A DNA stretch of 64,000 nucleotides from an uncultured bacterium (GTDB lineage Bacteria > Omnitrophota > Gorgyraeia > Zapsychrales > Aceulaceae): assembly GCA_937930175.1 (NCBI GenBank), contig CALGLP010000023.1, positions 27,205-91,204 on the forward strand, given 5' to 3'. Position 1 is the stretch's first letter, and every line of letters begins with the position of its first letter. The notes beneath the pieces were generated by a model, which saw only the letters and a program-made list of their open reading frames with translations, did not search any database and had not been told where the DNA came from. The position numbers and the translations under genes were made by a program. Below, one piece after another: positions 24,001-54,167 of the stretch.

Positions 24001-27000
24001 TTTGAGGGTCAAATCGAATTTTGCATTATTTTCATCCCTTCCATCTCCCGCATGGTTAGGCGAGATCGAGAGAGACATCAAAGGGGGAGTTTTTGGATCT
24101 GTGATCGCTTTAAAAGATGAAGACGATAGATTTCTCGCTCTCATCTATTGCCGTAAAATGACGTATCCTTTTTCTGGGGGAAAGATTTGCGCAGGATCGA
24201 CTAAGCCGCAAGAGAAGAAACAGATGACCAGCATTGCTTTTATTCAGGTTGCGGATAAGCGTGGCGCAGCGCTAGCCTTAGAAACACCCGCCTTTATCAC
24301 ATTTCTGATCAAAGAAGTTGTGAAGCGCAGCGTTGAAGATACGACGCTTTCTGCGGATCTTCGGGGAGCCGTGACTTTTCACTACAAGCATTGTGGAATG
24401 GAAAAGGTTTTGGACCAGACGCTTCCGGAATTCCTGAAAAGCATAGGATTTCAAGAAGTGACTTATACTTTTCAGGCCGGAGGGATTTGGGGAAGCGAGC
24501 AAATCGGAACAGCCGATTATTTAATGTTATCCAAGGCTGCTGCGTTGAAGCTTTTGGCGAAAAATAGTTCGTCCATCGCAGCGTCATCGTCAACCCCAGC
24601 GGTGCAAAACAAAGCATCTTACAAATATATTTTCTTTGGGTTGATTTCATCCGCCTACGCAGGATACCACCCCGTCTTGGGCTGGGGTGAGGACTGCAAA
24701 AATGGCCTTACAGGTGCTTCGGCGGATGTTTGCCTTTTTCTGAAAAAGACGGATGACTTTAGTCGTTGGGCTCCATATTTAACGTTTAAAGCTTTCCGCA
24801 AATGGATGGCGGCGCTTAGGGCAAGGCTGAGCGCTTGCGCGCAAAAAGGAAAAGATTTTGGGGAGCTGTTGCGTTTGGATTTCTTCCGTGGCTGGAGTAC
24901 CAATGTTGTCGCAACGGCTCCCTTGTTTTTTATAGGAGGTTTTCTTCCTGCGGTGCTTATCGTTCAAAGTGAAAGTCCGTTGACAAACAAAGCAAGCAGC
25001 ACTCTTTTTTCTAGGGATGTGCTTACAGATCTTGAACCGCAGCGCATGATGTGGCTCATTCGGATGATCGCTGATAACGATGAGAAATTATTTGGCCACA
25101 TTGAACAATTATTTAGTCAGGATGCAGAGAAAGTCAGGGTTTTTGCCGCGATCAACAAGTACCGTGAAATTAGTTTTAGCAAGATTTTTGAAAAAGTTGA
25201 CGGAATATCCCAAAAGCGGTTTCGTAAGGTCTTTATGGGGATTGTGGGTGATCTTTTGTCGAAAAATGCAAAGGTCCAGAAGCTATATGAAGAAGCTGAC
25301 GCGCTTTTTAAGGGAGATCAGAGATATGTGGCTCAGCTTGTTAAAGACGATTTATATAACATTGTTTGGGTTTTGCGCTGGATGAGCATCCAGGAGAAGA
25401 AAAAGCTTGAGTCGCTGATCAGGTTCTTTCCAGTAGCCATGGATTACCGCCGATATAATTATCACGCAAGGATTATTGCCGAAGCCGGTGCCGTTATAGG
25501 GAAGATAGCGGCCGGCATCTATTTATCCGATATTATTGAGGAAAGGCGAAAAGTTCGTTGCAGGCAAGTTATCTACACACATAATGAACAGGTTTTTGAT
25601 TATGTGTTGTATTTTGCCCACATTCCTTATGTTGCTAAAAAAGTTATCCATTATCGAAAGCAAAAAGAGCTTGTTGACAAGCTTAAAAAAGAAAGCTTAA
25701 AAATTGTGCTTTCCAGGGTTAAAAGCCTTCTTCGGAAGATCTATAACGAAGACAAGGCCTCATGGGACCGTCTCTTGAGAGATTTACCTTATCTTCCTGT
25801 TATGCAAAAGGCAGCGATATTCAAGCGTCATTTCTCTGAAAAGATAGAGCAGCGTCAGGCGGCCTTGGAACATCTGGCCACAGGCGTTGATTTGAGCCAA
25901 AAGGCGTTGAGGTCCCGGAAAGATTTTGATCGGAAGGATCTGCGTACGGCGGTGGAGGCTCTTTCTTCACATCCCAGCATACAGGCGGAGATAGTTAATG
26001 ATAAAAAGTATCCTGCGCGTAAGAAACGTCATTCCCTCGTCGAGGGCATCCGATTGCGTATAAAGCGAGCACAGCAGTATGCAGAAATCGGAAAAAGCAA
26101 AGAAGCGCGCGATCTTTTTCTGGAGGCCAGGGGGATGCTTTCTGAACTGGGCCCGGATGTGAGGGCCTTTGAATCTTTACATCAAAGCATTGCCAAAGGC
26201 TTGGAAGTCGTGGGCTGCTCTTGCGACGCGCAAGCCATTGAAGAACTTCAGCAGATATTTGATGAAGCGGAAGGCTTTGCAAGGGACGGTGCATATAAGG
26301 TCGCGAAACATTTTTATCAGAAAGCCAAGAGAATTTTGGCCGGTTTAGGTGTTGAGCCAAGCGTTGTGCAGCCTTTGGGCGAAAGAATTGAGAAAAGCTT
26401 AGCAGAGGTTGGCAAACTTCAACAGACAAAACGACTCGTTACGAAATTAAATACGGCACGAGCTCTTGAGAGACTCAGCATGCGCGTGCAGAAAGCAGAG
26501 CACTTGGAAAGGGAGGAAGGTCTTTACCTCAAAGCTTTAGCGCAATATCAAGAAGCCTTAAGGATTTATGATGTTCTTTTGCAAAAGAAAATCAATGACG
26601 CCGATTGGCTGACACTCACCGGGTTATATCAGAGAGTCGAGAAGGGAGTGCAAAAGACTCAAGAGACATTGATTGATACACAGCAATCAAATAAGTCCAA
26701 GGGCCGCAGCGGCAAAACAACCCTTTCCTCCGGCATTCTTTTAAAATCTCCTATGACCATCCCGCTGCTTATTGCTGCCGCGCAGCAACATCCTCTCATT
26801 GCTAAGTACTTCTTGCGCATGGCAGGGTATGTCGATGAGATCCGGAAAGAATTAGCGCCAGCCGTAAGCAAGGACGACTTTGGCATTACCTCGCGGCAGG
26901 AAGATCAGGGCGAGAATGTATTTTTGCTTAGCACAAAGAGGATTAGCGAGATTTTGTGGAAAAAATGTCCCAAGGAACCGGATGCCGCTACCTTTTTTAA

Positions 27001-30000
27001 TCGCGCGTTTATTGCTTACAACGATGCCCACAGTGCCGAGGCAGGGATCAATGCGCTCAAGGTGATCTTTTTATATGAAAACTACCGTCGATCAGGTCAA
27101 TTGTGGAAGGGCAGGGAATTTCTGAATATCCTTTGTGTGCCAAATCCGGATAGGATCATTTTTGATTTTCAGAGTGTTGAACATAAGAAATCTTTGCGTC
27201 ATGACAAAGGACTTGTTGTTGACCGCGTGCTCAAGATCTTTAACGATTATTTTACACAGGTGTTGCCTTTTGAACAGCAAAAAGTGTCTCTTGAAAAGCA
27301 AAAAGCAGTCAAGGCCTATTTGCGCAAGCGAGGCGGGCTTGATTTCTTTGAAGCAGTCTTTCAGTTCCAAAAAGAAGAGACCGTGCCGGCAGAGCCCATT
27401 ACTTTTGTTATCCGTCGTATCGAGGCCGGTGGGGAGGTGTTCTGGTGGCCGACGATCGTGATCAACCTGGCTGCCTTGAAGACGCCTGATCAAGTTTTGG
27501 AAGAATCCGTCGGGCGCGCGATGTTTTTGTTCTTGCGTTTTATCGCGCGCAGTTACCGGCTGCCTTTTCCTGAAGAGGGCATCGAAGAAAAGATGCTTTT
27601 AAGCTTAAACCCTGTTGGTTGCATTAAGAGTATGATAGGTCCCTTTATAAAAAGAGTTTATATCCGTGATCCGAACACGAACGAGTCATGGCCGCTTAAT
27701 TTTACAGAAAGCATTTTGGATGGCTTGTTCTTGATGCTGGTTAACTGGACCACCATTGATCCTGATGATAACGCTTTTGAGAAGCTCTCTCATAATACAC
27801 GTCGGCTGGCCTCATTTTATGGCGATAAAAATATGCTTGTGCAGGCCTTGTACCGATTGATGACATTGTATGATCTTTGGGATGCCCCCCTTATCATTAA
27901 TCACAAACTTTTCCAGAAAGAACTGTATCGTCAGATCACGGATCTTGTTGCGATCGGCCATAAATACCTGAATCTGCCGTCCTTATTGACACAAGAACAT
28001 CAGAGAGATTATCAGCGTTATTGTTTTGATGAGGCCCAAAAGGTCTTAGCGCTTGCGTTTGCAAGTTTTCAAAGGATACAGCAGGGCGTATCATTTCAGG
28101 AAACAGCAACGCGACAAGAATTTTTGAAGGAGGCAGGCGATGCTGTTGTGGATCTGACGAAGCATTTTATCCGCACGGTTTCTCATCCTAAGGTTGAGAA
28201 TCCTGATCCGGATTGGATTAAGAAATCAAAAGAATGGAGCAGGGCTTTGTCACATTTTAAGCCCATGGGTTCCTCGGCGATCAGCCAAGGCCCTGCCGCG
28301 GCTTCGAGCGCGATTTTTTGCATGCTGTGTCCTGTTTTTCATTTGGGGGCTGTTATTGTTTTTGATTATGCGTTGATCCAATCTATCATTTTTTTCATTA
28401 TTTTTATCGTGGGTTTTACATTAACGATCAAGGCGTGGATCAAAGAGGTTCAGCAAAACAAGCGCGTCAAGGTATTAAGCGATCCTCAAGCTGAAGATAT
28501 CAGCGTTGCTGTTATCAATCGTCCGACATACGACATCCCTAACGCTTTGGATACAAGCACACTCCTTCGTCTTGGTGAGGTTATTTTGGCCAATGAACAG
28601 AACGACAAAATTACTGCGACGCTCATCATGGGAAAAGGCGATCGCGCCTTTGTGGCCGGCGGTGATTTGATTAAAGTTGGGCTAATGAAGACATTGAAGC
28701 AGGCTGCGGGATACGCAAGGCTCGGTCTTGAGACCATGAATATCATCGCGCGATCCTTAAAGCCTGTTGTGGTCCTTATTAATGGTCCTTGTTCCGGCGG
28801 GGGTTCCCATTTGGCCTTAGCCGGTGATCGCATTATCATGGCCCGGACATTTCAGAAACGCTTCAAGAATTTCCTCCAGCATCCGGAAGTGACCTTGAAT
28901 GTCATGCCGGCCTGGGGTGGCCTGATGCGTCTTTCGCAAAGGATCGGGCCCAAGAATGCCATATGCCTTTTTCTTGAGATGGACGAACAGGGTCGAACCC
29001 GACGGGTTTATTCCGAAGAGGCATTGGCCATGGGGCTTGTTGATGAAGTTGTTGAAGAGGGGGAACTTTTTTCAGCCGGCCTCAAGGCTGTGCGCAAGGG
29101 TATTGCTTTGTCGCAAAACGACCTGCGTTTTACCGATCAAAAAAAGTTTTTGGCACAGCAAGAAGAAGTGCAAGGGTTGTTGGGGGATGAGGAGGTAATA
29201 GACTGGATCGCGGCTCATGAGAAAAAGGGGCGCGGAGATCTTGCCCGCGGCGTTGTGAAGATTGTCCAGATCGGTTACGCGCAAGGGATTTCGGCAGCCG
29301 ATGAGGAAACGATCAAGTTATCCGCCTGGGCCTTTTTCTCTTCAGAAGCCAAGGCTGCGATTGTAGAGAAAGTCAAAGAGCTAAAAGATCGCCGGGAAAA
29401 AGGAGTTGAAAAGAAGGATAGGATTTCCTCATCGCTTAAAAATCAAAAAGAGTGCCAAGCCCTGATAGGCCAGATCGCTGATGTTTTACAGCTAGAAAAA
29501 TCTGATGAATATGATTTTGGTGAGAAACCCTTAGCTTTCGGGGGCAACGAATATATTTTTCAATCTTTATCCAGAAAGTCTGGAAAGCCTGTTGTTCGTC
29601 TGGGCTGGGGCCATAACGGTATGGGGAGATTTCAGCAGGACCAGTATTGGGGCTCTTGCTTGGTGCAAGTTGGCCAGCTTGTGTTCATGGACGCGCAGAT
29701 GTTTAAGGAGCTGAGTCAGTCCTTTCAAGAAGTCTTGAGAAATAACATTATTCTTTGCCGTGATCTGCATGACAGCACGATCGACAATAAAGGCTTACGG
29801 GATTACACCTCAGCCGTTATGGCCGCGATGTTTCAAGTTGATTTTGAGGGGAAATGGGTCATCGACTTTGGTAGCGGGGATGGAATGCTGTCATTGGCCG
29901 CGCAGGTGTTTGACCCCGCATTTATAACACTCTTGGATTGTGATGAGGATGCTCTTAGGCGGGCAGCCGTCCATTCCGGTCTAAATAGTCTCAAGAGATC

Positions 30001-33000
30001 TTTGGGCCCAACTTTTTTAAAGGCAGACTTGCGTAAACCTAAAGAAATGATGTCCATGCTGAAAGCCCAGAACGCTCATCTACCTATTATTATTTTAGCG
30101 AATTTGGGGGAATCAGAATATTGGTATGATGGGATAACGAATCAGACCGTGATCAAACTCCTTCCTGCTATTGAGCACTTCACGGGATGTCAGATTAGCG
30201 ATGTTGCCTTCGGCGGATATATTTCAGCTTATGATATTTATACGCAAGGTCTTCCTGAGAAGGCGATCCGAGATGATCAAGAGTTGCTTAAGCGTACAGC
30301 AGGTTTTACTGTTTGTCCTGAAGTCGGGTCAACTGATCTTACCTTTGGCCCTGGTGCCTGGCGCGCTAAGAGGAATGGTCTTTGTTCCTCTGTGATCATG
30401 GCCGTCGGTATCACAGGGCTCGCTGCGGCACTAGCCGGTTTTGGCGCAGAGCATCTGCACGAGCTTCTTGTCTTTGCTCAACAGATTAACGGGCCTGGCC
30501 TGAGTTTTATCGAAGGGCCGGGGTCGGCCCTGGCCCTGGCCGGGGCGCCCTTGCAGGAGTTTTTGGCCGCGGTCAACCCGACGATTTGCCGGTCCGCCTC
30601 GGAAACAGAGGCTGCGCAGACAAAAAAATGGCTCGATTCCATGGCTGCCGATGAACTTTTAACGGTCATTGGTCTTCAAAAAGGCAACGTTTTCAAAGAG
30701 CCACAAGATACCCTCAATAAGCTAAAAATCGTATCGATCCGAACCCCGCGACGTCGCCAACACAATCTTCCCTCTGTTGATGTTTTGAGCCAGCGCATTT
30801 CTTCGTCGGCAATAATAAAGATCCGCGATGCCAAGGATGTTCTAAATTTTGGCGGTAAAGCCGCAAACTCAAGCAAAGTAATAGAGCTAGGGAAGCGCGT
30901 CCCAGACGGTTTCGTGTTGCCTGATGAAATATTTGACGACTCTGTAATGCCAGAGATCGATGCCATCCTTCATGATTTGGCAGTAGATGTTGAAACGCCA
31001 GAGACCATTTTCGCGATATCCCAAAAAATTTCGGAACTTGTCGTTTCAAGAGACTTTCCTGCCCAGCTTCAAGACGATATCATACAAGCCTATCGCATCT
31101 TTAAGAACGGAAGAAAAGATTTAAGAGTCGCTGTCAGGACCAGTGGTATTAAGGAAGATTCTCGTGCTGCTGCATTCGCCGGACAGTTTAAAACCGTTTT
31201 GAATGTCGCCACAGAGGATGAGCTTATCATGGCCATAAAAGAATGCCGAGCTTCATTATGGAGCCCGCAGGCCATTATTTATAAATGGCACAACAGCATC
31301 GACACTAAAATGTGCATTATCGTCCAGGAGATGATACCTGCAGAAACATCGGGAGTTGCTATGAGTGCTGACCCCTTAACGGCCGACAAACACGAGACGG
31401 TTATTCATGCCGTGTGGGGATTATGTGAAGGGGCGGTCAACGGCTCGGTGCCGGCAGATGAGATACGTTATGACAACAAGGCAAGAAAAGTTAATCCGCA
31501 CAGGTCAACCAAGGCCTACAAAGACCGGATGATCGTAGTCTCGCCGACCTCGGGCGTAGAGGAAGTCTCCGTTCCCAAGAAAAACAGGAATAGATGGGCT
31601 ATTGATGGTGAGCAGCAAAAAGAGGTAGCGCAAACTGTTTTGGAGCTGCAAGACGCCTTTGATGGCCCTGTGGATATGGAGTGGAGCTATTACCAGAGAG
31701 AGCTTTTTATCCTTCAGGTCCGCCTCATAACGGCGATCAATGAGAAGACTGCCTTTCCCATTGAGTGGGATGGAGAAGAGGATAAAGCGTTGCAGTGGAC
31801 CTGGGCCCCGTTTATCTTTAACGGTAACGCCACGTTCCTGGAGATTTCAGGGACCAGGCATACCAATGACGGCAATCTGCGGGCCGGAAAAGCCCTTTCT
31901 TTGCCAACGGATTCTATATTCAAGGTTTTCAACGGTTTTACTTACAGGGCGTTATACAGCAATAAGAAAAGCAAGTATCTTGCTCCGTTCTTATGCAAAC
32001 GCCTTGTGCAGAATATGCTTAATTTTATTTTTCCTTATTATCTTGAATTGATCCGGATCTATCCGCGTTGCGTCGGTTCTTTAGGAAGAATTGGCAAGAT
32101 CTTTGATCTACTCTGGGAAAATCAGTGGGACAATCTTCTGCCGGAGGTCAAGCAGAGATTATCCAGACTAAAAGCGATATATGTCGGTGCCGGAGGGGCG
32201 CCTTACTCGGAACTCCATTCGAATGTTCAAGAAATAGCCGATACTGAGACCAAATTTTGGGAAATTAACCGCAGAAGCATAACTTTCATGCGCTACCTTA
32301 ACATTCACTATTTTAAGAAGGCGGATTACGCATTATTGGCCCAAGGATCCGTAACGGCTATCAGCGAGCTGAGGTCCAAGATTGTGGCAATAGCTGATAT
32401 TGTCAAACAAAACAGTGTTTTACATGACGAATTGGCGAGTCGTTTCAATAACGCGGTAGAGTTGAATACCCCCGTAGACATTTCGGGGCTGGACAAGATA
32501 AAGGGCGGTCCGGAATTCTTGATTATGCTGGATAATTTTCTTGATGAGCATGGGGGAGTATGCTCCAATTTCCTGATACCGACTTGGTCCGAAAACAATG
32601 TCGATGTCATAAGATGGATTTTAGCATCTTGCGATATGGAGGAGAGAGCAGGAGATATTAAGGCCAGGGAGCAAAGGATAAACGACTTATTGGCTGTGGT
32701 AGGTCCTATCCATCGACCTCGAGCTAGGTACGAGTTGGAGCTACCCATAAAGATCGAGAGAATTTTTAACGACCACAATTATTATAATAAACAACTGTTG
32801 GCAGGCGGAGAGCGGTTGTTTTTCCTTAAATTAGGCGAGAGGCTGACGGATGAATTTATCTTGGAGTCTTCCGAGCAGATATTTTTCCTTTCATACGAAG
32901 AGATCTTAGATTTGTTACGCAAGAAGTCAGAGGGAGGCGGCATCGAGATCAGCGCCATAAGGGCAAAAATCCGAGAGAGATTTGCTATATGGAATAGCCG

Positions 33001-36000
33001 CAATGCTATGAGGCCACAAATGCATATCGGCAGTATGCATAGTAGAAATCCCGAGAAAGTAACTGCGGTAATCGGAAGACCTAAAAAATCGATAGCTGGG
33101 TGGGCGTTGCTCAATGATTATGCCGTAGAAACTCAGGATGAGGATAGCAAGATATTAAAAGGCCGGCCTGCGTCCCCAGGGATCTATGTCGGCAAGGTCA
33201 AGGTTGTTCTTTATCCGCATGAAAGTAACAAGATCGCGAAAGGCGACGTTCTGGTCTGCAGAACAACTGATCCGACCTGGACAGCATTATTTTCTACCAT
33301 CGGGGCTGTGGTGGCCGATTTTGGCAATGGAGTAACCCAGCATACTGCGATTACTGCCCGGGAATTCAGGATACCTGCTGTCGTAAACACAGGCTCAGCC
33401 ACTAGGCTGTTAAAAGACGAACAGGTCGTTCGAGTTGATGGTTACGAGGGCACAATCACGATTATTTCCTCGCCGGTCCTTCCCGCCCTCTTAACCCTTG
33501 GCCTGATGGGCACGGCGCTGGCAAGTTTTTCGGGCGTATCTGGGGCGGGTGCCATGACCCAGGCGGGGTTGATGGATGCAGGGGTTTGGGCGTGGCTCGC
33601 GGGTTTTGGCACAGAGCATCTTCACGAGCTTCTTGCCTTTAGCCGGGACACCTTGGGGCCGCCGTTTATTTTACAAGCATTTTTCTTTCTTGTGGCCCCG
33701 TTAGACTTCCTGAAAGTTCTTTACTCTCCGTTCACCCAGATATTCCAACCAAAAAAATTCCTGACAGAAAAGCCTTTGGTAAAGGCGGATGAAAATTCCA
33801 GCGAAAACCCCAAAGAAGCCTCGCAGTCCGATTCCCTTTTAAGAGAGCAGCAGGCTCTTGTTTCTGTCGAGCTTGGTATTTATAAAACAAAGGTTATTTT
33901 TTTAGGGGTCAGCGATAAAGGACGCCCGTTAAAACAAAAATTAATGTTTCGCAGTATCTTGACCAAGGATTTGCTGGAAGATACGCGCGTATCCGCTGAA
34001 AAGTTAGGCCGCTTTATCCTCCGCACGACCAAGGAAGCCCGTACTCAAGCTCAGAAGAAAGGCCGGCGGCTAGTCGTTTTACCGGTCTTTAGCTTGGCCT
34101 ACAATGATCGGTTTGATGCCCACAGTGAACGCTTAAGGCAGGACCTTTCCCTCATGCTGGGCAGCCAAGGCATTGTTAAGCCTGATGCGGTGGCGGTGCT
34201 TTCTTACCATTTAAGAAAAATCCTTCCCACTCTGGGGAAGAAAATCAGGGGCCAAAATCTCATTTTTCTTAAGATGTCCGGAGGATTGGGCGGCGGCTCC
34301 ATTGTCAACGTGCACACCCATGATCTTTATGAGAATGAAATTGTCAACCGGCCGGTGGCTGATATTAAGCTTAAAGGGAAAAGCCATCGCATTAAAGTCG
34401 GTTCAAAGATATTCACGCTCATCTTTAAAGGCTCCCAGCCTTTTTCAGCGGGGAATATTATTTCGGGTAAAGGGATCGAAAGAATTTTAAAGAGTATTGA
34501 TTGTCAATTAATGAAAGAAGGGCGTCGGCCTGTCTTTCAGGGGCTGCTTGCCCGGTATCCCAAGAAAAAGGTCGATGGGTATTTGCTGGAGGGGATCATT
34601 TCCAATGAGGTTCATGCCTCGCGTGAGGTGGTGAGCCTTTCGCGAAAAATTCTGGTCTTGATCGGCGAATATTTGGGTCAGTTGATCGTACTTTTGCACA
34701 AAGGAGAATTTGAGTCGTACAAAAAGAAAGACCGTTGGAGCCAAAAGGACAAGACAGAGGTTTCTCGCACACTGAATTTTATCCTAGAGACAAAAGGCGC
34801 GTGCGGTAAGATCATTAAGCAGTCTGCCGCACGGTATTTGAAAAAACATCTTCCTCAAGAGCAGATCTGTCTTGTTCATTTTTTTGATGAGGGAGAATTG
34901 GCAGCCGCAAAAGGGGCAGCCTATTTTATTCCCAGACAGGCTCTCTATGAAGCCCTGATCAAGGCCAAGTATCTTTTGTCCACGGTGAACGCGGGCATCA
35001 ACCGCCAGCAGCAGGTGGCTGAGCATTTTAAGAGCCGGATCATGAACGGCAAGAATGTCGGGCTCAAGAAATGTATTCGTAAGCTAAAGATCGCTTTCAA
35101 ACAAATTTCCGGTGTTGAGATGTATCGTTACCGTCAAGATTGGATCGCGGTTTTAGGCCAGACGATTTTTGCCAAGGAGAGCAACTCACTGCGGGAGGCC
35201 TTGAGCGAAGTAAGTTGTCTTTTAGGGGAGACAAAGTTTAAGGTTAATGAACATGTCTTAGGGTATCTGACGAGATCTCATGATCTTACGGAGCAAGATG
35301 CCGGCAAGTTAAAACTGGTCTTAGATTCTTTAAAGCCCCGTAAGTTTAAGAATCGCCTTAGATCTGGCTATGTTTCTTTACGTTTGCTTGTCAAGCAGTT
35401 GAGTACTGTTAAAAATATCGCGGTTCTTTTGATCTTGATGGGGGCCACCCTGGAGATCTTTGATCAGCTGGTGAATGTCCTAGACGTGATCTCAACGTTT
35501 TCGGGATATTTCTTTAAGTGGATGGGTAACGGTGTGGTTGTGTTGACCCTTTTGGGTTTGATCGCGTATGCTCTTAAGCCATTGTTTCGTCGGATCGTTT
35601 TTAGAGAATACCAATCGTTTGTTAGCCAGGACACGGTTACAAAAGCCGCGCGCAGGATCCGGGTCGCCCCGCTTGACTTTACTCAGGCGGAAGATAAATC
35701 GAGCTATAGCTATTTGGTGTTTAATTCTGTGCCTTTTTTAAGGCAAATAAGAGATATTGTGCACGGCATTATCCGTTATAGCGGTTTTTCGCATGATGGT
35801 TTTTATGGCGTGGAGGATGTTGGTGAGCACGGCAGGACCAAAGGTGAATTCCTAAATAAGTTAGTCATCGATTATTTAGCAACGGGGGCCAGGCAAAGGC
35901 GATGGAGCCGATGGCTGATGGATAAGGTTTTCCGATTTTCGTTGAGCCCGGCGTATTCTTATCGCAAGGGCCAGCAGATCTTAAGCCAGCTATTTGCGAT

Positions 36001-39000
36001 TCTTAAGGAAAAAGGATATACGCAGCCGGCTATTGACCAGATGATCAAGGAAGCGTATTTCCATGGAAAGACACCGGCATTGATCAAGGCCATGGAAGGG
36101 GCTTTTGAGCCGGGGATCTTTTCGTTCTTGGAGAACCGTCTTAACCTTGGGCAAATGGATCAGACCTCTTTTCTTCTTGAAAAGGGGGTTGCTTTAAGAC
36201 AGAGACAGAAAAAAGAGAATAGCGTGTTGTTAACTAGCCTTGTTTCTGAGTTAGGCTCGGAGAAGGCTAGCAGCAGTTGTGATCTAGAGGGGCATGAGCA
36301 TGGCCATCACCACGACCACGCGCATCATCACGCAGTCAATATGCAGACGTTGAAAAAGGTTTGTGCGATTGTCGCCGGCTATATGGTGATCGAATTATTT
36401 GGAGGAATGTTTTTCCGTTCCTTGGCGCTGACCGCGGATGCCGGGCATATGTTCATGGATGCCATGGGGCTTTTGTCGGTGTTGCTCGCGCAGTGGTCCA
36501 CGCAGCGTTGGGATATGCATAGAAAATATAATGGTGTTTCTTGGGCGGAGCTTCTGGCGACGGGTATTAATACATTGATGATCCTGATTATGGCAGGGTA
36601 CGTTTTTGTTGAGTCCTTTGAGCGCTTCGCTCAGCCTGCTGCTGTTGCGGTGTTGCCGGTGTCGGTGATCGCGCTTGTCGGGTTGGGGGTCAATATTATA
36701 AGCGAGAGGATCGTGCATCCACAAAAGGATAACGGGATGGGTATGAAAAGCGTATATGTGCATATTTTTGGTGATTTGCTGATCTCTGTGGGTGTTCTGG
36801 TCAGTATGCTTTTGATCAATATCACCGGAAACAATGCTTGGGATCTTGGGATCAGTTGTGTCATTACGCTTTGGCTTATTTTTAATTCAGGCCGCTTGGC
36901 TGTGGGGATGGTTAAGGCGGTCAAAGGCAAGCATGACGATGAACATCATTGGTATGATGAAGCTTCCGGATTAGGCGATGATCACTCGCATTATCATGCG
37001 AAGCACGAAAAGGCTTGCTCGTTGATCCGCGAGACTAATCTTAGGGCATATGATCTACCTGGCGCGGTCCAAGCCAAGGCCTTGATTGAGCCCACGACCG
37101 TCGACCTTTATGAAAAGACTGAGAGGCCTCTTAAAGCACCGATCGGATTCGAAGTCGAGTTCAATTTGTGCTCGTTAAAGCGTTTTGGCAGCAAAAAATA
37201 CCGCACCCGCATCCGCTCCTTGCCTTGCAAGCCTTATTGGGTGGCGACCGGCATCTTTGAGGTTAGCCCAAAACCTTCTTGGAGTTATCAGACTCAAGTG
37301 GCTATGGCGCAGGCGTTGCTGAATAAACTGGGGATTTTGGTCGAGGATATTATTTCGGTTCAGGTCAATCTGGGCATGCCTTCTAAGATCTGGAAAATAG
37401 TAAGACAGCTTGAGTTCCTTGAGGAAATGCAGAAGATCATGATGGTAACGGCTTTAGGCTTTGTTTCGGCTGAGCGCATTTTAAATAAGAAAACCAGCAA
37501 GGTCGTCGAGCTTCGTCCCGGCCGATGGTTTTTTAGCGAGGCCATGAGCCTTGAGGGTCAACGCTATGTGCGTTTTGAATGCGGATTTGCGGATTGGCTG
37601 ATGATCAATGAGATCGCAGGCATTTTGCAGCATCTGTTCCCGGCCTTGACCGTTTATTGCCGCAGTGATCTTGAGGCTTTGACCGATGATCAGCAGGAGC
37701 TTGCCGGGATCTGGCAGAAAAGGATCCGGGAGCCTTTGCAGTCCCTGGTTGATGAGGTTTTTTTCGCGGCGGATAAAGATTTTCTGATCGACAATGCCTT
37801 GACCTATGTTGCACTGCTGAAGCTTCGGGATGGGAATGAATATTTTCGGCAGGCCAGTCAGCAGATCTTGCGCGATGTATTTAAGGCCTATCAGCAATGG
37901 CGGGAGCGGGCCAAAGATTTAGGAGTATTGGAAAAGACGATTTCGTCTTGTATCTTTGAAATCCCAGTGGCGTCTTCATTTGTCGCTTGGACACCGGAGG
38001 CCTTTGAGATCTATGGCAATAAGGGTGGGCGCAGTTTTGTAGCATTAGCCTTTGCAGGTCAATTTAATGATAAGACTATAGGAAAAAGAGCTCTTTCAAT
38101 CGGCACAGGCCGTTACAATTATCCGGAGCTGGAATTGGCTCTTCGCGGTTGGGATGTTACGGTGGTGAGCCCGCTCACAAAAGAAGAACTATGGAAAACC
38201 CGCTTAGATCCTTGCAATGAGACATATCAGGGCATCCGGCCTGGCGCACTAGGGGCGGTCATTCGACAATCTGGGGGCCGCTATAGGTATATTAATTCAT
38301 GCTTTGAACTTGAAACTCCAAGCCAATATTTTCAAAATGAAAAATTTGATTTAGTGATCATCGCTAATTTCTTAGATACTGGAGGGGGTTCTGAATTTAT
38401 TAGACATGCTTTTAAATCTTTTGTTTCTATTTTAAGCGATGAAGGCCAGATGGTCATTGTTAGCAATCGAATTTGCTCCAGGAGCGAAAATTTTATCAAG
38501 AAACTTAGAAGAAATAATGTTGAGCTTAAGCGGTATCAAGGTCTTCCGTATTATGATCAACTTTTGCACCAAGTGGTTTATGCTGATTACGACGGTAATT
38601 GTTACTGGGATGTTATCTCCAGAGTTCAGTATTTTTATTTTCGGAAATGTCTTTCTTCTGTCATTTTGGTGGTAGATGATGAGGTCAATAATCTTGACTT
38701 AACAGCAATGATTGCAGAGTCTTTGGGCTATGGCGTGGTGAAGGCCGGTAGCGTCGATGCAGCGCTTGGGATCTTGCGCCGACAGAAGATCGATGCGGTT
38801 GTTTCGGATGTCAATATGCCCGGCTTAAGCGGTATTGATTTGGCACGTATTGTTGCCGAAAAGTTTCCTTTGGTTCCCGTCATCTTGATGACAGGGTGGG
38901 TGGCCGCGGACCAAAAAGAAGAGATCGCGCAATTGAAGTTAAAACTGATTTATAAGCCGATTGACCCCGATGATCTTCAAAAAGCGATTGAGAAGGTATT

Positions 39001-42000
39001 TTTAAGAAAGTCATCAAAAACCTCTTCGCCGGCGGTTGACCCTGAAGGACTAACGATATTTTTATTGGGGAGAGAGGGGGTCTCTTCATCAATCGCCTGG
39101 TCTCTAGAGACGATTGTCGGAGGAGATTTAAATGCTCGTTATTTAAAACGTATCTGCGAAATTATTAACACTCATGATGATGAGGAAGAACCAAGGGACC
39201 ATGGGCGAGAAAAGGTGGCGTTCTTGATTGGGCCGGCCGCTGATTTTTCGACGGCATGGTTAGCGACTCAAGCTTTGAAGTTCATTTTTATTGAGAAATT
39301 GCCATTGCATGTCACGTTGGACACTGTCCTAAAGAGAAATATCCAGGAGTTGATGGAACATGCTTTTATGTTGAGCATGATGTCAGCGCTCGGATCAGGA
39401 GATTTGCCTAATTTCGATCTGTTTCTTTATATGAATGAAAAGAAAATTATTGATTTGTATTGTATGGAAAAAAGTTTTCAGGGCTTCATCACTGATGAGT
39501 TCTTGGGGATCTGTGGAGGCGTGTGGCCATTTCTTAAGAAGGAAATCGAGATTGCCACGCGCGATTCTTCTGATCATATCAGCCCTGCGGCAAGAGAGGA
39601 TGATCCCAGGGTTTTTGATTTGAATTTTAGACTAAACAACAGGGAACACTCCTTGGTTTTTATGGAAAAGACAGATGGATTGGACGTCAGCAATTATGCA
39701 AATTATCTAAGGCTCTTTGGTGGCGTTGATTTTATTATCATTAAGGCCGGCGATGTTTATTTAGAGAATAAGAAATTTTTGCTGCCTGGACAAATCGTTG
39801 AGGAGTTCTTAAGGCCCGGAGGATTTGTCATTCTCGACAGCAAGAGGGCTCTTCAGCAGGGCCAAGCGGTTCGCGATTTACTGATACCTGTGGAAGATGA
39901 CGTACTTTTGAAACTGGAAAGGCAAGGGGCTGTTTTTGGTTACAATGGTCCTCTTTATAATGAATCAAAGAGCGGGGCATATATTTTTAAGAAGAAAGGC
40001 TCCATATCTTCGGCGGTAGCTTCTTCAGTGCTCGATATTCCTTCGGGCCGGGGAACAAGCTTTAAGATTTTATTGCCAGTTGCCAAAGAAAGCCAACAGA
40101 AAGAATCTTTTTGTCTGACGGGTGTCAAAGAGGGCAGGGCAACCAAGTCTAAAAACTCCGGATCACCATTAACTTTGTCTACGATCTTCGTTCTAGGCCT
40201 GGTCAGTTTAATGGGGGCAAGCTTGGCGGGATTGTCTGAGCCGGGCGCGGTTGCTCATGTGGGATTAATGGACGCAGGCGCTTTGCAGTGGTTGGAGGGT
40301 TTTTGGTCAGAGCATGTGGCGGCGGTGTTGTCGGCGGTATTTCCTAATGGGCCGGGGGAAGGGGTTTTGGTTTATGGCGCCTTTGCTTCTTCTCACCTTT
40401 TTGTTCTTGCCCTTCTTTCTCTTCTCATCGGATCTTTAATTTTTATATTTTTATTCCATCGCAAAAATCACGACCAGATTGCTTACCCTGAGATCCAGGG
40501 CATGGATTTTATGTCGGTTGTACGTTATTTTTTGCCTCAGGGCGATCTGACCCTCACTGATGTCGGAGCCGGGAATAACCGTTTTATTGAATCAGTAAGA
40601 GAAGATCTAGATAATGCTTTTTCGCTTTTGGTTGGCTTTGATAACAAGACCCCGGGCTATAAAAAGTATTGCCCCCACTCCCAAGAAGTTATTTCCCTTT
40701 CTCTTCAAGAGGCAGCTGGAGATCCAGACTATCAAGAATATTCTAACGTTGTTACCGTAAATGCGCCAGACGTGCATTTTTACGATGATCTTGTTCCTTG
40801 CGTGATGTGCTTGCTCAAACGGCAAGGCGTTGGCTTGATTTTTGTGAAGTTGGCTCCCAAGGATGGTTGTTATATCAAGAATCTGATGCATCAGATGCGG
40901 ATTTATGGGGCACAGCCGATTTTGCTCAAAAACCTTCAAGGTTATCCCAAGACTTTTTATACTGATGACAGAACTCCGGTCGTTTTGGGTGTAGTTCACT
41001 GGAGGCAGAAAGGATCTTGTTCGGCGAGCGTCACAGAGGATATGACTGTTGCTAACGCAGACGGCCTTTCTGCGCAAAAGAATTGTTTTTTTAAAACGAG
41101 ATGGCTGATCGCGTCTATCACTTGTACAAAAGTTCTATTGATGACTTTTTCTTCATTGATCAAAAAAAATAAAGTTCTTTTGCTCAGTGGTTTATTATTC
41201 TTTTTTCCTAACGCGGCGCTGGCTTTTGTTGGGACCGGCCCTGAGGATTCCTTGGGAAGCCTGCCTGAGGCCAGTTATTGGCTAGTAGAATGGATGTTGA
41301 GCCAACCGCTCTGGCTGGCGCTGGGCAAGATCTTGACGCCCGTTCTCGTGATCGCGCTTTTTTTAGCCAGGGCCAGGCGATGGAGGGTCTCGATCCCTGA
41401 GCCGGTTCAAGAGGCGTTGGGGATTCAGCCGAAATCTCGCGCGTCCGCGTCATCCAGCAGGCACGGATTGTTTTTCTCATCCTTGGGACCTTCCAACGCC
41501 TTTGATGATCAGGCTTACGAGACGCTTGTTAACAAGGGTTTTATCGTTCAAACCATTGCTCAGAGACGGTTTCTTTTTATTCTTCGCGTTTTTGACAAAA
41601 CATCTCTTGTACGCCGGCATCCGCAGAAGGTCTTTATGATCGATATAAGAGATATTGATGACCGAAAGCGTGTTGCACGTTTTGATTTTGTTTTTGATCT
41701 TGCTGCTCAAAGAGCTGTTGCAGATACGGCTTATGTCGAGTATCGCTTTTTAAAAGGATACGAGGAGTCGTTAGATCATCTTCATAGCGAGGGATATCGC
41801 GTTGCCCTTAAGGTTCTTGATAAGGCGCGCGATGTTTTCTTTTCGACTCGAGGATTAAGCTATCCTGTGAGCATCGATATTGCTGACGATTATCGCAGTT
41901 CAAAGAAAAAAGGCAATTATCAGTTTTTCACAATTCTTTTTAAAATATTCTTTTCTTTGGCTCATCAGCAGGGCATACAATCCTTTAAAGCGGTGCCGCT

Positions 42001-52918: not shown

Positions 52919-54151
52919 ATGTCAAAATTAAAATTATTGTTCTGGCCGGAGCTTCTTGCTCCTGCCGGAGACTGGGCGAGCGTGCGCGCAGCTGTAGGCG
53001 CTGGCGCAGACGCAGTTTATTTTGGTGTTAAGACGTTGAATATGCGGCATGAAGCGTCGAATTTTGACCTTTTGGAAATCAAAAAGGTCATGGCGTTCTT
53101 GCATGAACATGGGAAAAAAGGATATTTGACGGTTAACACGATTATTTTGGAAGAGGACCGGGCTCCTTTAAGAAAGATCTTTGAGGCGGCATCGAAAGCT
53201 TCAGCTGATGCCGTTATTTTATGGGATACGGCGGCTCTCACCCTTGCCAAAGAATACGGGCTTGCTGTTCATCTGTCCACGCAGGCTTCGGTGGCTAACA
53301 GCGAGGCCGTTGCCTTTTACGCCGCGCAAGGCGCGGCGCGCATTGTGTTGGCGCGTGAGTGCACACTAAAAGATATTCAGAACATTGTCCAAGAAATTAA
53401 GAAAAGAAAGATCGCCTGCCAGATCGAGACCTTTATTCATGGCGCGATGTGCGTGAGCATTTCGGGCCGATGTTTTATGTCAGAGTTCTCGTTTGACAAA
53501 TCCGCCAATAAGGGAGAGTGTCTTCAGCCGTGTCGACGAGAATTTGCGATCCGCGATGTGGAGGATGAAGCTGAATATATTTTAGGCAACGATTATGTCC
53601 TAAGCCCTAAGGATCTCTGCACGATTGATTTTATTGATGAGCTCATCCTAAGCGGTATTCATGCGTTTAAGATCGAAGGCCGTATGCGTTCTCCGGAATA
53701 TATTCGGGTTGTGGTGGGCGCGTATCGCAAGGCGATCGAGGCTTTTTATCAAGGTATTTTAACTGTGAAGCTAAAAAGAGAGCTCAAGGAAGGTTTGCAA
53801 AAAGTTTATAATAGGGGATTTTCCTCCGGGTTTTACTTTGGCCGGCCAGGGGTGAAGGATATGAGTCGGGGCTTGGGGCATACGCACGAGAAAGTTTATA
53901 TCGGTGAGGTTAAGAAATTTTATGCCAAGATCAGCGTCGCGGATATTCGCGTTCAGAGTGGTGTCTTGAACAAAGGGGACACGGTCCTTTTTATAGGCAA
54001 TAAAACGCCGGCGCTAGAGGCCAAGATTGGCGATATGCAATGCAATCGTGTTTTTATTGAGCAAGCCCCCAAAGGGACTGCGGTTGGCGTTAAGCTCCCC
54101 TTTGCGGTTAAGCCTAAGGATAAGGTTTTTTTGTGGCAGAAGAAAAAATAA
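52919..54151 (+). CDS. Peptidase U32 family protein (collagenase-like / YhbU-PrtC family)
   Basis: N-terminal ELLAPAGDWASVRAAVGAGADAVYFG and IETFIHGAMCVSISGRCFMS are typical U32 signatures. 410 aa. Confidence 0.8.
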   Translation: MSKLKLLFWPELLAPAGDWASVRAAVGAGADAVYFGVKTLNMRHEASNFDLLEIKKVMAFLHEHGKKGYLTVNTIILEEDRAPLRKIFEAASKASADAVILWDTAALTLAKEYGLAVHLSTQASVANSEAVAFYAAQGAARIVLARECTLKDIQNIVQEIKKRKIACQIETFIHGAMCVSISGRCFMSEFSFDKSANKGECLQPCRREFAIRDVEDEAEYILGNDYVLSPKDLCTIDFIDELILSGIHAFKIEGRMRSPEYIRVVVGAYRKAIEAFYQGILTVKLKRELKEGLQKVYNRGFSSGFYFGRPGVKDMSRGLGHTHEKVYIGEVKKFYAKISVADIRVQSGVLNKGDTVLFIGNKTPALEAKIGDMQCNRVFIEQAPKGTAVGVKLPFAVKPKDKVFLWQKKK

Positions 54152-54167
54152 TAGCGCAGGAGAGGCC

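What the first reader, a model, noticed from the sequence alone, without database searches (positions are those of the whole stretch)
30800..33465. PEP-utilising-enzyme module (PPDK_N ATP-binding domain + swivel phospho-His domain) bracketed by two copies of the hydrophobic repeat
Strong matches were seen: GGKAANSS..VPDGFVLP, AVRSSGIKEDSRAAAFAGQFKTVLNV, and ..VADFGNGVTQHTAITAREFRIPAVVNTG.. with the catalytic His. The arrangement resembles PEP synthase or rifampin phosphotransferase but lacks an obvious C-terminal PEP/pyruvate TIM barrel, so it is like a stand-alone ATP-grasp + phospho-His relay. The module begins and ends at repeat copies b and c, supporting a cassette-like architecture.
Basis: partly seen in the sequence, partly recalled or inferred. 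Interest (0 to 1): 0.6.

Follow-up and report, generated by a model that had tools for sequence, protein, structure and literature searches.

The report
Kinase-like module inside giant bacterial gene
The flagged stretch is a complete, gene-sized copy of a rifampin-phosphotransferase-type ATP-driven phosphate-transfer enzyme that is not a gene of its own but one in-frame module of a giant (at least 17,588-codon) membrane protein gene of an Omnitrophota bacterium, a kind of giant multi-enzyme gene already described.

Summary
Window 30800-33465 gives PPDK_N (E 9e-69) and PEP-utilizers (E 1e-19), with the catalytic His present and no PEP/pyruvate TIM barrel anywhere nearby. It is not a two-domain relay. 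The ~490 residues between the two domains form the helical acceptor-binding domain of the rifampin-phosphotransferase (RPH) type. A profile of 49 stand-alone relatives aligns end to end (533 bits), and the AlphaFold model matches RPH-Lm over its whole length (E 1e-40).

It is also not a separate gene. It lies in one ORF, 101-52867 (17,588 aa, frame still open at the window start), next to ordinary bacterial genes whose best relatives are Omnitrophota. Its two closest relatives (~32% identity) also sit in-frame in giant ORFs, and they share only this module with the window's protein. That supports the cassette idea.

The ATP-site residues and the His are kept. The Arg of RPH's Arg-Glu acceptor-site dyad is replaced, so it is not a rifampin phosphotransferase, and the acceptor is unknown. 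Predicted transmembrane repeats flank the module: copy c abuts it, and a truncated copy b lies 78 residues upstream.

Verdict: a new member of known kinds, of moderate interest. Module edges coincide with lineage-specific delimiter motifs (Ser runs here, DGG elsewhere), which deserves follow-up.

The parts
101..52867 (+). Giant ORF of 17,588 aa as listed. The frame is open to window position 2, so the 5' end may lie outside the window. It carries the module and all six hydrophobic repeats.
   Evidence: Pfam finds only sparse, unrelated gene-sized modules: sigma70 r2/r4, ARMT1, PIG-L, ECH, PrmA/MTS, PPDK_N, PEP-utilizers, Cation_efflux, Response_reg.
30800..33463 (+). Complete RPH-type three-domain dikinase module (giant aa 10234-11121, 888 aa)
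   Evidence: Profile of 49 stand-alone relatives aligns HMM 5-859/866 to module 5-889, 533 bits. AF2 pLDDT 80.9. Foldseek top hit is RPH-Lm 5hv1, E 1.1e-40. blastp to the L083 giant covers aa 10233-11122 only.
30848..31756 (+). ATP-grasp (PPDK_N) nucleotide-binding domain. Contains K10253, R10346, T10365, E10527, Q10539 and R10541.
   Evidence: E 8.9e-69. Residues correspond to RPH-Lm K22, R117, T136, E297, Q309, R311 by the alignment and PMC4844700. Invariant columns; coordinates.
31757..33235 (+). Central, mostly helical acceptor-binding domain (RPH 'RIF-BD' equivalent). The RPH Arg666-Glu667 position is Asn10890-Asp10891 (nt 32768-32773).
   Evidence: for homology and fold. for the replaced dyad. 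Relatives, including P0121, carry PF27448 Rph_4th.
33236..33451 (+). Swivel phospho-histidine domain (PEP-utilizers). Catalytic His is aa 11081 at nt 33341-33343.
   Evidence: E 1.1e-19; invariant H848; aligned to RPH-Lm His825.
30380..30565 (+). Hydrophobic repeat copy b (truncated): predicted TM helix aa 10094-10112, then the second half of the repeat (LAGFGAEHLHELL...).
   Evidence: 10106-10155 matches 11161-11215, E 6e-6
30566..30799 (+). 78-residue linker between copy b and the module. It ends in ...SQRI just before the SSS run.
   Evidence: no family hit
33464..33745 (+). Hydrophobic repeat copy c: predicted TM helix aa 11129-11147, a conserved Gly/Ala/Trp segment (AGLMDAGVWAWLAGFGTEH), and a second hydrophobic helix aa 11189-11207.
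30414..30475 (+). 62-nt direct repeat, left copy (inside repeat b)
   Evidence: family D6; alignment
33579..33640 (+). 62-nt direct repeat, right copy (inside repeat c), 79% identical to the left copy, spacing 3165 nt
   Evidence: family D6
30800..30808 (+). Ser run (SSS) at the exact N-terminal edge of the module
33467..33472 (+). Ser run (SS, followed by P) at the exact C-terminal edge of the module and start of repeat c

Best explanation
Window 30800-33463 encodes a full-length, three-domain ATP-dependent dikinase of the rifampin-phosphotransferase / PRK06241 'PEP-synthase-like' type. The domain order is ATP-grasp, helical acceptor-binding domain, then a C-terminal swivel phospho-His domain. 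It is fused in-frame as one gene-sized module of a giant (>=17,588 aa) membrane-anchored multi-enzyme protein of an Omnitrophota bacterium.

Inferred mechanism, by analogy with RPH-Lm:
1. The ATP-grasp domain binds ATP.
2. His11081 on the swivel domain attacks the beta-phosphate, giving AMP, Pi and a phospho-His intermediate.
3. The swivel domain moves to the central domain and passes the phosphate to an acceptor bound there.

The acceptor is not pyruvate, because there is no TIM barrel. It is probably not a rifamycin, because the Arg of the RPH Arg-Glu dyad is replaced. It remains unknown.

Predicted transmembrane helices of a repeated hydrophobic element flank the module. [quoted passage not shown]

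Shown: the domain identity, the fold, conservation of first-half-reaction residues, in-frame embedding, cassette boundaries and the Omnitrophota context. Inferred: catalysis, the topology and the nature of the acceptor.
For: - Domains: PF01326 E 8.9e-69 and PF00391 E 1.1e-19.
- Best PDB sequence hits are RPH-Lm 5fbs/5hv1, aligned in both the N domain and residues 557-887.
- The AF2 model has pLDDT 80.9. Foldseek gives RPH-Lm E 1e-40, TMq 0.57, ~940 aligned columns, while PEPS 2ols aligns only 334 columns.
- A profile of 49 stand-alone relatives aligns end to end at 533 bits.
- Invariant family residues K20, R113, S115, E119, D120, D292, E294, Q306, R308, H848, R854, E855 are all present. They match the RPH-Lm residues shown by mutagenesis to matter: K22, R117, T136, H825 (PMC4844700).
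- No PF02896 occurs in the whole ORF.
- The module is embedded in a single ORF, 101-52867. An independent ENA contig (L001) is identical across aa 9237-10353, including the repeat b to PPDK_N junction.
- The two closest relatives (E 2e-119 and 9e-131, ~32% identity, full length) also lie inside open frames that fill their contigs: P0121/L082 2887 aa and L083 6632 aa. They cluster with the window module in an NJ tree.
- Only the module is shared with L083.
- Flanking genes are ordinary bacterial ones. YifB is closest to Omnitrophota MAGs, at 72% and 66%.
- The first helix of the repeat is as hydrophobic as the true TM helices of the CDF transporter module in the same protein.
- Giant multi-enzyme, TM-studded Omnitrophota proteins are described in bioRxiv 10.1101/2023.11.21.568195 and 10.64898/2026.06.07.730766. 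The former lists PPDK_N in a giant-protein domain diagram.
Against: - All NCBIfam scores are far below the curated cut-offs: best 296.9 vs 883, and RPH 247 vs 999. No specific function can be transferred.
- The Arg of the Arg-Glu dyad is conserved in 40/43 relatives and essential for RPH's second transfer. Here it is Asn, and it is Glu in the two giant-embedded relatives. The second half-reaction may therefore differ or be lost.
- Parts of the central domain are modelled with low confidence (residues 388-427 and 746-780).
- Topology is not settled. Copy b shows only one clearly hydrophobic helix. Taken literally, that would put the module and the upstream methyltransferase on opposite sides of the membrane.
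- No TM predictor was available, and the AF2 model of the repeat was uninformative (pLDDT 53).
- There are no expression or proteomic data for this gene.
Confidence: 0.75

Rival explanations
1. It is a genuine PEP synthase or pyruvate phosphate dikinase, converting pyruvate to PEP, whose TIM-barrel domain was simply missed.
For: High partial scores to the PEPS models NF005057 and TIGR01418 (283 and 273 bits). PDB hits to PEPS 8a8e, 9dae and 2ols.
Against: Those matches cover only the ATP-grasp domain (query 91-398) and fall below the cut-offs of 598 and 739.75. There is no PF02896 in the 17,588-aa ORF or the downstream genes. The His domain is C-terminal rather than central, and the whole-length fold match is to RPH, not PEPS/PPDK. 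The TIM-barrel PEPS sequences form a separate tight clade.
Confidence: 0.02
2. It is a rifampin phosphotransferase, that is, an antibiotic resistance determinant.
For: The best structural and PDB sequence match is RPH-Lm. It has the same three-domain order, and the ATP-site residues and catalytic His are conserved.
Against: NF041857 scores 247 vs a cut-off of 999, and NF000283 scores 161 vs 1700. The Arg666-Glu667 dyad, whose mutation abolishes rifampin phosphorylation, is Asn-Asp here. Identity to RPH-Lm is ~20-22%. It is embedded in a giant membrane protein with unrelated enzymes.
Confidence: 0.03
3. It is a phospho-relay or protein/polymer kinase. The module loads His11081 from ATP and passes the phosphate to another module of the giant protein, or to a macromolecular (for example glycan) acceptor. 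The central domain serves as a docking platform. This is essentially the first reader's 'relay' idea.
For: First-half-reaction residues are intact, but the Arg that positions the phosphate for transfer to a small molecule is lost in all three giant-embedded copies. The module is covalently tethered next to other enzymes and to a receiver domain ~1,700 residues downstream. Glucan water dikinases use the same chemistry on a polymer (own knowledge; PMC13553574 is listed).
Against: The central domain is retained at full length, with clade-specific conserved motifs between giants that share nothing else: DHxYY, WDNxLPEVK, PxWSExN. That suggests a conserved binding pocket. No conserved partner module is shared between the three giants. 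No direct evidence exists.
Confidence: 0.15
4. It is a decayed or non-catalytic remnant that serves only as structural filler in the giant protein.
For: The Arg of the dyad is lost. Identity to all stand-alone enzymes is very low, at most 37%.
Against: Every invariant catalytic-site residue of the ATP-grasp and His domains is retained. The reading frame is intact over 888 codons. The module is conserved end to end at ~32% identity between otherwise unrelated giant ORFs, which argues for selection on the module.
Confidence: 0.05

Closest known systems
Rifampin phosphotransferase RPH-Lm (PDB 5FBS/5FBT/5FBU/5HV1; PMC4844700)
   Same: It has the same three domains in the same order: ATP-grasp, helical acceptor-binding domain, C-terminal swivel His domain. 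The length is similar (888 vs 867 aa). The ATP-site Lys/Arg/Thr and the catalytic His are conserved. It is the best whole-length fold match.
   Different: Identity is only ~20-22%, and it scores far below the NCBIfam RPH cut-offs. Asn-Asp replaces the Arg666-Glu667 dyad. It is not a free-standing gene but an internal module of a giant membrane protein.
Stand-alone PRK06241-type 'PEP synthase-like' / PEP-pyruvate-binding-domain proteins with PF01326 + PF27448 (Rph_4th) + PF00391. Characterised members of this wider group include PigC/RedH and the Hpe kinase (own knowledge; the NCBIfam names appear, and HpeI 9goj appears).
   Same: Homology is end to end (533-bit profile alignment). The N and C termini of the module coincide with the termini of the free proteins.
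   Different: All 100+ listed relatives of this type are 700-1000 aa ORFs at <=37% identity. The window module lacks its own start codon and groups with two other giant-embedded copies.
PEP synthase (PpsA) and pyruvate phosphate dikinase
   Same: It shares the ATP-grasp and swivel His domains and the presumed pyrophosphoryl/phospho-His chemistry.
   Different: It has no PEP/pyruvate TIM barrel, and the His domain is terminal rather than central.
Omnitrophota giant proteins: the 'Archaeovorin' type of West-Roberts et al. 2023 and the 'multi-enzyme metabolic cluster' class of Nielsen & Lui 2026
   Same: The ORF is >10,000 aa in an Omnitrophota genome. Many unrelated enzyme Pfams tile the polypeptide, including methyltransferase, HAD-like, response-regulator and kinase-like modules. 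TM helices occur every few hundred to a thousand residues. PPDK_N is already listed among giant-protein domains.
   Different: No SecA_DEAD, C39, glycosyl-hydrolase or dockerin domain was detected in the part of the ORF inside the window. The six-copy hydrophobic repeat has no detectable relative elsewhere.

Membership tests
PEP-utilising dikinase superfamily (ATP-grasp PPDK_N + swivel phospho-His domain) | PF01326 and PF00391 both above Pfam gathering scores | tested here: met
   232.7 bits vs 27, and 70.2 bits vs 23.1
PEP-utilising dikinase superfamily (ATP-grasp PPDK_N + swivel phospho-His domain) | Catalytic His in the swivel domain, plus the phosphate-binding Lys/Arg of the ATP-grasp domain | tested here: met
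   H11081, K10253 and R10346 lie in invariant columns of a 50-sequence alignment. They align to RPH-Lm H825, K22 and R117.
PEP synthase / pyruvate phosphate dikinase | C-terminal PEP/pyruvate-binding TIM barrel (PF02896) | tested here: not met
   No hit at E<=0.001 in any of ten overlapping 2000-aa chunks of the ORF, nor in the downstream genes.
PEP synthase / pyruvate phosphate dikinase | Score above the NCBIfam equivalog cut-off (NF005057, TIGR01418, TIGR01828) | tested here: not met
   282.8 vs 598; 273.5 vs 739.75; 26 vs 843
RPH-type three-domain dikinases (PRK06241-like) | Domain order ATP-grasp, helical acceptor-binding domain, C-terminal His domain, homologous over the full length | tested here: met
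   The profile of 49 members aligns HMM 5-859/866. Foldseek matches 5hv1 at E 1.1e-40 over ~940 columns. PF27448 itself is not in the local Pfam copy, but it is recorded for the relatives and for P0121.
RPH-type three-domain dikinases (PRK06241-like) | Free-standing ORF of ~800-900 aa | tested here: not met
   In-frame inside the ORF 101-52867. There is no start codon at the module edge.
RPH-type three-domain dikinases (PRK06241-like) | Score above any NCBIfam PRK06241 subfamily cut-off | tested here: not met
   Best 296.9 vs 883
Rifampin phosphotransferase (RPH) | NCBIfam NF041857 / NF000283 cut-off | tested here: not met
   247.2 vs 999; 161.1 vs 1700
Rifampin phosphotransferase (RPH) | Arg666-Glu667 dyad required for phosphate transfer to rifampin | tested here: not met
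   The HMM and MAFFT alignments place Asn10890-Asp10891 there. The two giant-embedded relatives have Glu-Asp. The family has Arg in 40/43 and Glu in 38/43 members. The alignment is in a ~22%-identity helical region, so it is slightly uncertain.
Rifampin phosphotransferase (RPH) | Rifampin-binding pocket residues and rifampin phosphorylation activity | not testable with these tools
   The pocket region (RPH 317-551) was not aligned residue by residue. Activity needs an experiment.
Omnitrophota giant multi-enzyme proteins | ORF >=10,000 aa with many distinct enzyme domains and multiple TM helices | tested here: met
   17,588 aa. About 10 distinct Pfams. More than 25 hydrophobic segments, including a 6-TM CDF module.
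Omnitrophota giant multi-enzyme proteins | Encoded in an Omnitrophota genome | tested here: met
   The neighbouring YifB is closest to Omnitrophota MAGs, at 72% and 66% aa identity. The best of them (L002) carries a giant-like ORF that shares several modules. No rRNA or marker-gene phylogeny was done.
Omnitrophota giant multi-enzyme proteins | SecA_DEAD and/or C39/S8 peptidase domains (reported as common in full-length giants) | tested here: inconclusive
   None was found in the window part of the ORF. The 5' end of the ORF may lie outside the window.

The most novel reading that the evidence does not exclude
The giant ORFs may be polyprotein-like chains of gene-sized cassettes separated by lineage-specific delimiter motifs. 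In this lineage the delimiters are Ser runs, typically a small or hydrophobic residue, then SS, then S/P/V/A. In the L083/P0121 lineage the delimiter is the tripeptide DGG.

Under this reading, the delimiters are processing or hinge sites. DGG would fit the double-glycine specificity of the C39 peptidase domains that recur in giant Omnitrophota proteins. The RPH-like module would then be released, or flexibly hinged, as an individual enzyme belonging to a giant-gene-specific clade with a remodelled acceptor site. That would supply the 'cleavage points' that West-Roberts et al. state are unknown.

Evidence so far:
- DGG is 10.5-fold enriched in L083 (21 copies) and brackets every Pfam domain without cutting any.
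- DGG flanks the module in both L083 and P0121.
- Ser runs sit within 1 residue of both edges of the window module. They lie within 8 residues of 8 of 18 homology-block edges, against 1.65 expected (P~5e-5).
- L002 keeps SS at the same receiver-module start.
- Synonymous codons vary at these sites, so the constraint acts at least partly on the protein.
Probability: 0.2. Interest if true: 0.75.

Novelty: new member of a known kind. Interest (0 to 1): 0.4.

Why it matters
As it stands, the finding adds one more enzyme type to the catalogue of modules carried by Omnitrophota giant proteins. PPDK_N had already been noted there. It also corrects the reading from 'truncated PEP synthase' to a full RPH-type dikinase.

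Three points go somewhat further. First, the module is a whole gene's worth of protein whose edges coincide exactly with those of free-standing homologues. Second, the same module recurs in otherwise unrelated giant ORFs as a distinct clade with an altered acceptor site. Third, its edges carry short lineage-specific motifs.

Together these give a concrete handle on two open questions about giant bacterial genes: how they are assembled (cassette shuffling) and whether the products are cut into pieces. The module is small enough to express and assay. It could therefore serve as a test case for whether enzymes inside these giants are active.

Tried and rejected
- PEP synthase/PPDK reading: rejected. 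There is no TIM barrel, the His domain is terminal, and the scores are sub-threshold.
- Rifampin-resistance enzyme: rejected.
- Independent gene or an assembly artefact: rejected. An independent contig, L001, is identical across the upstream junction. There is no start codon at the edge. Two other giants carry the module in-frame.
- Search for the hydrophobic repeat elsewhere: a profile of 5 copies against 5.8 billion proteins found nothing at E<=0.001. An HMM search of six-frame translations of the 81 related loci gave only one chance-level hit. In P0121 and L083 the module is not flanked by hydrophobic segments, so TM bracketing is not a property of the module clade.
- AlphaFold of repeat copy c with 6 copies as the alignment: pLDDT 53, three helices, not usable for topology.
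- dN/dS against L001: uninformative. The two are identical except for contig-end errors.
- Ser-run junctions as a DNA scar: rejected, because the codons vary between TCN and AGY.
- Shared neighbouring modules that might hint at the substrate: none were found between the window giant and L083.
- Literature search for double-glycine or polyprotein together with Omnitrophota: no paper holds both terms.
- The NJ tree has no support values and is nearly star-like. It was used only as weak support.

Full report
**1. What is at the coordinates**

Window 30800-33465 lies on the + strand inside a single uninterrupted ORF listed as 101-52867 (17,588 aa). The same frame has no stop back to window position 2, so the gene may start outside the window. 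The flagged stretch is aa 10234-11121 of that protein.

Pfam gives PPDK_N (E 8.9e-69; aa 10250-10552) and PEP-utilizers (E 1.1e-19; aa 11046-11117). One residue was misread: the sequence is AVRTSG, not AVRSSG.

PEP-utilizers_C is absent from the whole ORF and from the ten ORFs downstream.

**2. What the module is**

NCBIfam ranks PRK06241-type 'PEP synthase', PpsA, RedH, PigC and RPH models highest. All are far below their cut-offs, and the PpsA-type matches cover only the N-terminal domain.

Against the PDB, the best sequence hits are the Listeria rifampin phosphotransferase entries. They align both in the ATP-grasp domain and over residues 557-887, which is the second half of the central domain plus the His domain.

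I aligned the module with 49 stand-alone relatives and built a profile from those relatives alone. The profile aligns to the module from profile position 5 to 859 of 866, at 533 bits. The module therefore corresponds to an entire free-standing protein, from its first to its last residues.

An AlphaFold2 model built on that alignment has mean pLDDT 80.9. Foldseek against the PDB returns RPH-Lm 5hv1 at E 1.1e-40, TM 0.57-0.59, over ~940 alignment columns. PEP synthase and HpeI match only the ~330-residue N domain, and PPDK scores poorly.

So this is a three-domain RPH-type dikinase: an ATP-grasp domain, a helical acceptor-binding domain, and a C-terminal swivel His domain. It is not a two-domain relay and not a truncated PEP synthase.

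**3. Catalytic residues**

The columns invariant across the 50 sequences include K20, R113, S115, E119, D120, D292, E294, Q306, R308 and H848 in module numbering. By the alignment these correspond to RPH-Lm K22, R117, E297, Q309, R311 and H825, and T132 corresponds to T136. K22, R117, T136 and H825 are the residues shown experimentally to be needed for the first phosphotransfer (PMC4844700).

RPH's second transfer needs the Arg666-Glu667 dyad. In the family, that Arg is present in 40 of 43 aligned members and the Glu in 38 of 43. The window module has Asn-Asp there, and its two nearest relatives have Glu-Asp. All three instead share a DHxYY motif.

I therefore do not file the module as a rifampin phosphotransferase. 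I treat the acceptor as unknown and the second half-reaction as possibly altered.

**4. Context**

Downstream of the ORF lie ordinary bacterial genes: a U32-family protein, YifB, an L,D-transpeptidase, AccA, RlmN and tRNA-Leu. YifB is closest to Candidatus Omnitrophota MAGs, at 72% and 66% identity. The best of these (L002) has a long open frame at the corresponding position that shares several modules with the window protein.

Pfam hits along the giant protein are sparse. They are normally independent cytoplasmic or membrane proteins: ECF sigma factor regions 2 and 4, ARMT1, PIG-L, enoyl-CoA hydratase, PrmA-like methyltransferase, the dikinase, a CDF cation transporter and a response-regulator receiver.

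This matches the giant Omnitrophota proteins described by West-Roberts et al. (bioRxiv 10.1101/2023.11.21.568195), whose supplementary domain legend already lists PPDK_N. It also matches the 'multi-enzyme metabolic cluster' class with regularly spaced TM helices of Nielsen & Lui (bioRxiv 10.64898/2026.06.07.730766).

An independent ENA contig (L001/P0001, 3.5 kb) is identical to the window over aa 9237-10353. It differs only at its low-coverage ends. The ECH, methyltransferase, repeat b and PPDK_N junctions are therefore not an assembly artefact.

**5. Relatives and the cassette question**

In the word-indexed search, everything except P0001 is a stand-alone 700-1000 aa protein at <=37% identity.

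The exhaustive HMMER search gives as best hit P0121 (E 2e-119), aligned over residues 3-887 to positions 1383-2271 of a 2887-aa product. That product fills its whole 8.7-kb contig.

The metagenome scan gives L083 (E 9e-131). There the module lies in a frame open over all 19.9 kb held (6632 aa). Twelve other relatives checked in that scan sit in 780-980 aa ORFs.

blastp of the whole window protein against the 6632 aa of L083 finds one block only, aa 10233-11122 against 2407-3300. The three embedded copies group together in a neighbour-joining tree of the ATP-grasp domain, apart from TIM-barrel PEPS and from JGI-annotated RPHs (no support values).

The module is thus a discrete unit that recurs in otherwise unrelated giant genes.

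**6. The hydrophobic repeat**

Six copies exist, at aa 988-1046, 10094-10155, 11122-11215, 13354-13413, 14272-14332 and 15041-15086. They are also visible as DNA repeats.

Each full copy has these parts:
- a start of (S/G)S(P);
- a helix as hydrophobic as the true TM helices of the CDF module in the same protein, within the top 0.3-0.8% of all 19-mers;
- a conserved AGLxDAGVxxWLAGFWxEH segment;
- usually a second hydrophobic helix, which makes a membrane hairpin plausible.

Copy c abuts the module. Copy b is truncated and sits 78 residues upstream. Copies b and c share the variant LAGFG(A/T)EHLHELL and a 62-nt direct repeat at 79% identity, spaced 3165 nt apart. That is compatible with insertion or duplication by recombination between repeats but does not prove it.

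The repeat has no detectable relative in 5.8 billion proteins or in the related loci. Its AlphaFold model was too poor to use.

Four strong hydrophobic helices lie between the module and the CDF N-terminus. In characterised CDF transporters that terminus is cytoplasmic (own knowledge). This is consistent with a cytoplasmic module. The single clear helix of copy b leaves the topology unsettled.

**7. Mechanism proposed**

By homology with RPH-Lm, the steps would be as follows. The ATP-grasp domain binds ATP. His11081 attacks the beta-phosphate, and AMP and Pi are released. The phospho-His domain then swivels to the central domain and donates the phosphate to an acceptor.

The fold, the residues of the first half-reaction and the embedding are shown here. 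Catalysis, the acceptor and the topology are inferred.

The main rival is that the phosphate goes to a macromolecule or to a neighbouring module. I give this ~0.15, because the Arg of the dyad is missing. Against it, the full central domain is conserved.

**8. Side observation that may matter more than the module**

The module's edges are QRI-SSS-AIIK and TITII-SSP-VLP.

Ser runs in the window protein:
- SS occurs 118 times against 79 expected, and SSP, ASS and SSS are 3-4-fold enriched.
- Ser runs lie within 8 residues of 8 of 18 independently defined homology-block edges, against 1.65 expected (P about 5e-5).
- The related L002 ORF keeps SS at the same receiver-module start, although the preceding sequence differs.

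DGG in L083:
- The tripeptide DGG occurs 21 times, 10.5-fold over expectation, at spacings of 14 to 1,069 aa, most of them 130-530 aa.
- Every Pfam domain found lies between two successive DGGs, and none is cut.
- DGG flanks the dikinase module in both L083 and P0121.

Codons at these sites vary synonymously. In L083, however, GAC is used for the Asp in 17 of 21 cases, against 28% overall.

These look like lineage-specific inter-module delimiters. Whether they are protease sites (double-glycine and C39 is an obvious guess), hinges or recombination joints is unknown. West-Roberts et al. state that cleavage points are not known. I found no paper linking Omnitrophota with double-glycine or polyprotein processing.

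**9. Verdict**

The object is a new, divergent member of a known enzyme family, sitting in a known class of giant genes. Interest is moderate (0.4). The delimiter-motif reading is the most novel possibility left open, at about 0.2 probability.

Noticed in passing
window 101-52867 (+); frame open from position 2: One uninterrupted ORF of 17,588 aa occupies 82% of the window. It may start upstream of the window. It chains normally independent proteins in-frame: an ECF sigma factor, ARMT1, PIG-L, enoyl-CoA hydratase, methyltransferases, a dikinase, a CDF transporter and a receiver domain.
   Followed up: partly
window, e.g. 30800-30808, 33467-33472, 38654-38659, 41150-41155, 11333-11338: Ser runs (a small or hydrophobic residue, then SS, then S/P/V/A, then a hydrophobic residue) sit at module edges. 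8 of 18 homology-block edges lie within 8 aa of a run, against 1.65 expected (P~5e-5). Four of the six hydrophobic repeats start with an SS run (SSP in two of them); the other two start GSP. Codons vary, so it is a protein-level motif. L002 has SS at the same receiver-module start.
   Followed up: partly
L083:2-19897 (+) and L082/P0121: In these other giant ORFs the tripeptide DGG is 10.5-fold enriched (21 copies in 6632 aa). It brackets every Pfam domain (HEAT, PRK, radical SAM, isochorismatase, dikinase, GNAT, methyltransferase, UPF0489, MutS_V) without cutting any. Eleven different 9-mers encode it, but Asp is GAC in 17/21 cases against 28% overall. It may be a double-glycine processing site or a hinge. 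The window protein has no DGG.
   Followed up: partly
window 3062-3238, 30380-30565, 33464-33745, 40160-40339, 42914-43096, 45221-45358: A six-copy hydrophobic repeat consists of a TM-like helix plus a conserved AGLxDAGVxxWLAGFWxEH segment, usually followed by a second hydrophobic helix. It has no detectable relative in 5.8 billion proteins or in related Omnitrophota loci.
   Followed up: partly
window 10757-11188 (+): Sigma-70 region 2 and region 4_2 (ECF-type sigma factor) lie in-frame inside the giant membrane protein. This is an odd place for a transcription factor.
   Followed up: no
window 36269-36904 (+): A six-helix cation-diffusion-facilitator module with a His-rich N-terminal stretch (HEHGHHHDHAHHH) is embedded in the giant ORF. 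It starts right after an SSS run and appears to lack the usual C-terminal cytoplasmic domain.
   Followed up: no
window 21848-23428 vs 24974-26566; 11345-12142 vs 37055-37837: There are two pairs of internal paralogous modules: aa 7250-7776 / 8292-8822 at 37-51% identity, and aa 3749-4014 / 12319-12579 at ~30%. There are also coiled-coil-like tandem repeats at aa 7616-7938 (DNA repeat D3). The giant gene has grown partly by internal duplication.
   Followed up: no
L002:16828-21525 (-): The closest Omnitrophota MAG (YifB 72%) has a >=1566-aa open frame at the syntenic position. It shares only some modules with the window protein (window aa 12852-13002, 13685-13758, 14051-14250, 16239-16525) at different spacing, so modules are gained and lost between relatives.
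   Followed up: partly
window 52919-54151 (+): A U32-family gene (TrhP/UbiU-like, sub-threshold) starts 52 nt after the stop of the giant ORF on the same strand. Its listed ORF overlaps the next ORF (54027-55844), which has no family hit.
   Followed up: no
window 32768-32782 (+); P0121 and L083 equivalents: A clade-specific D-H-x-Y-Y motif replaces the family's Arg-Glu dyad region in all three giant-embedded dikinase modules. Other motifs shared only by these three are WDNxLPEVK, PxWSExN and VVADxG...QHTAITARE.
   Followed up: partly
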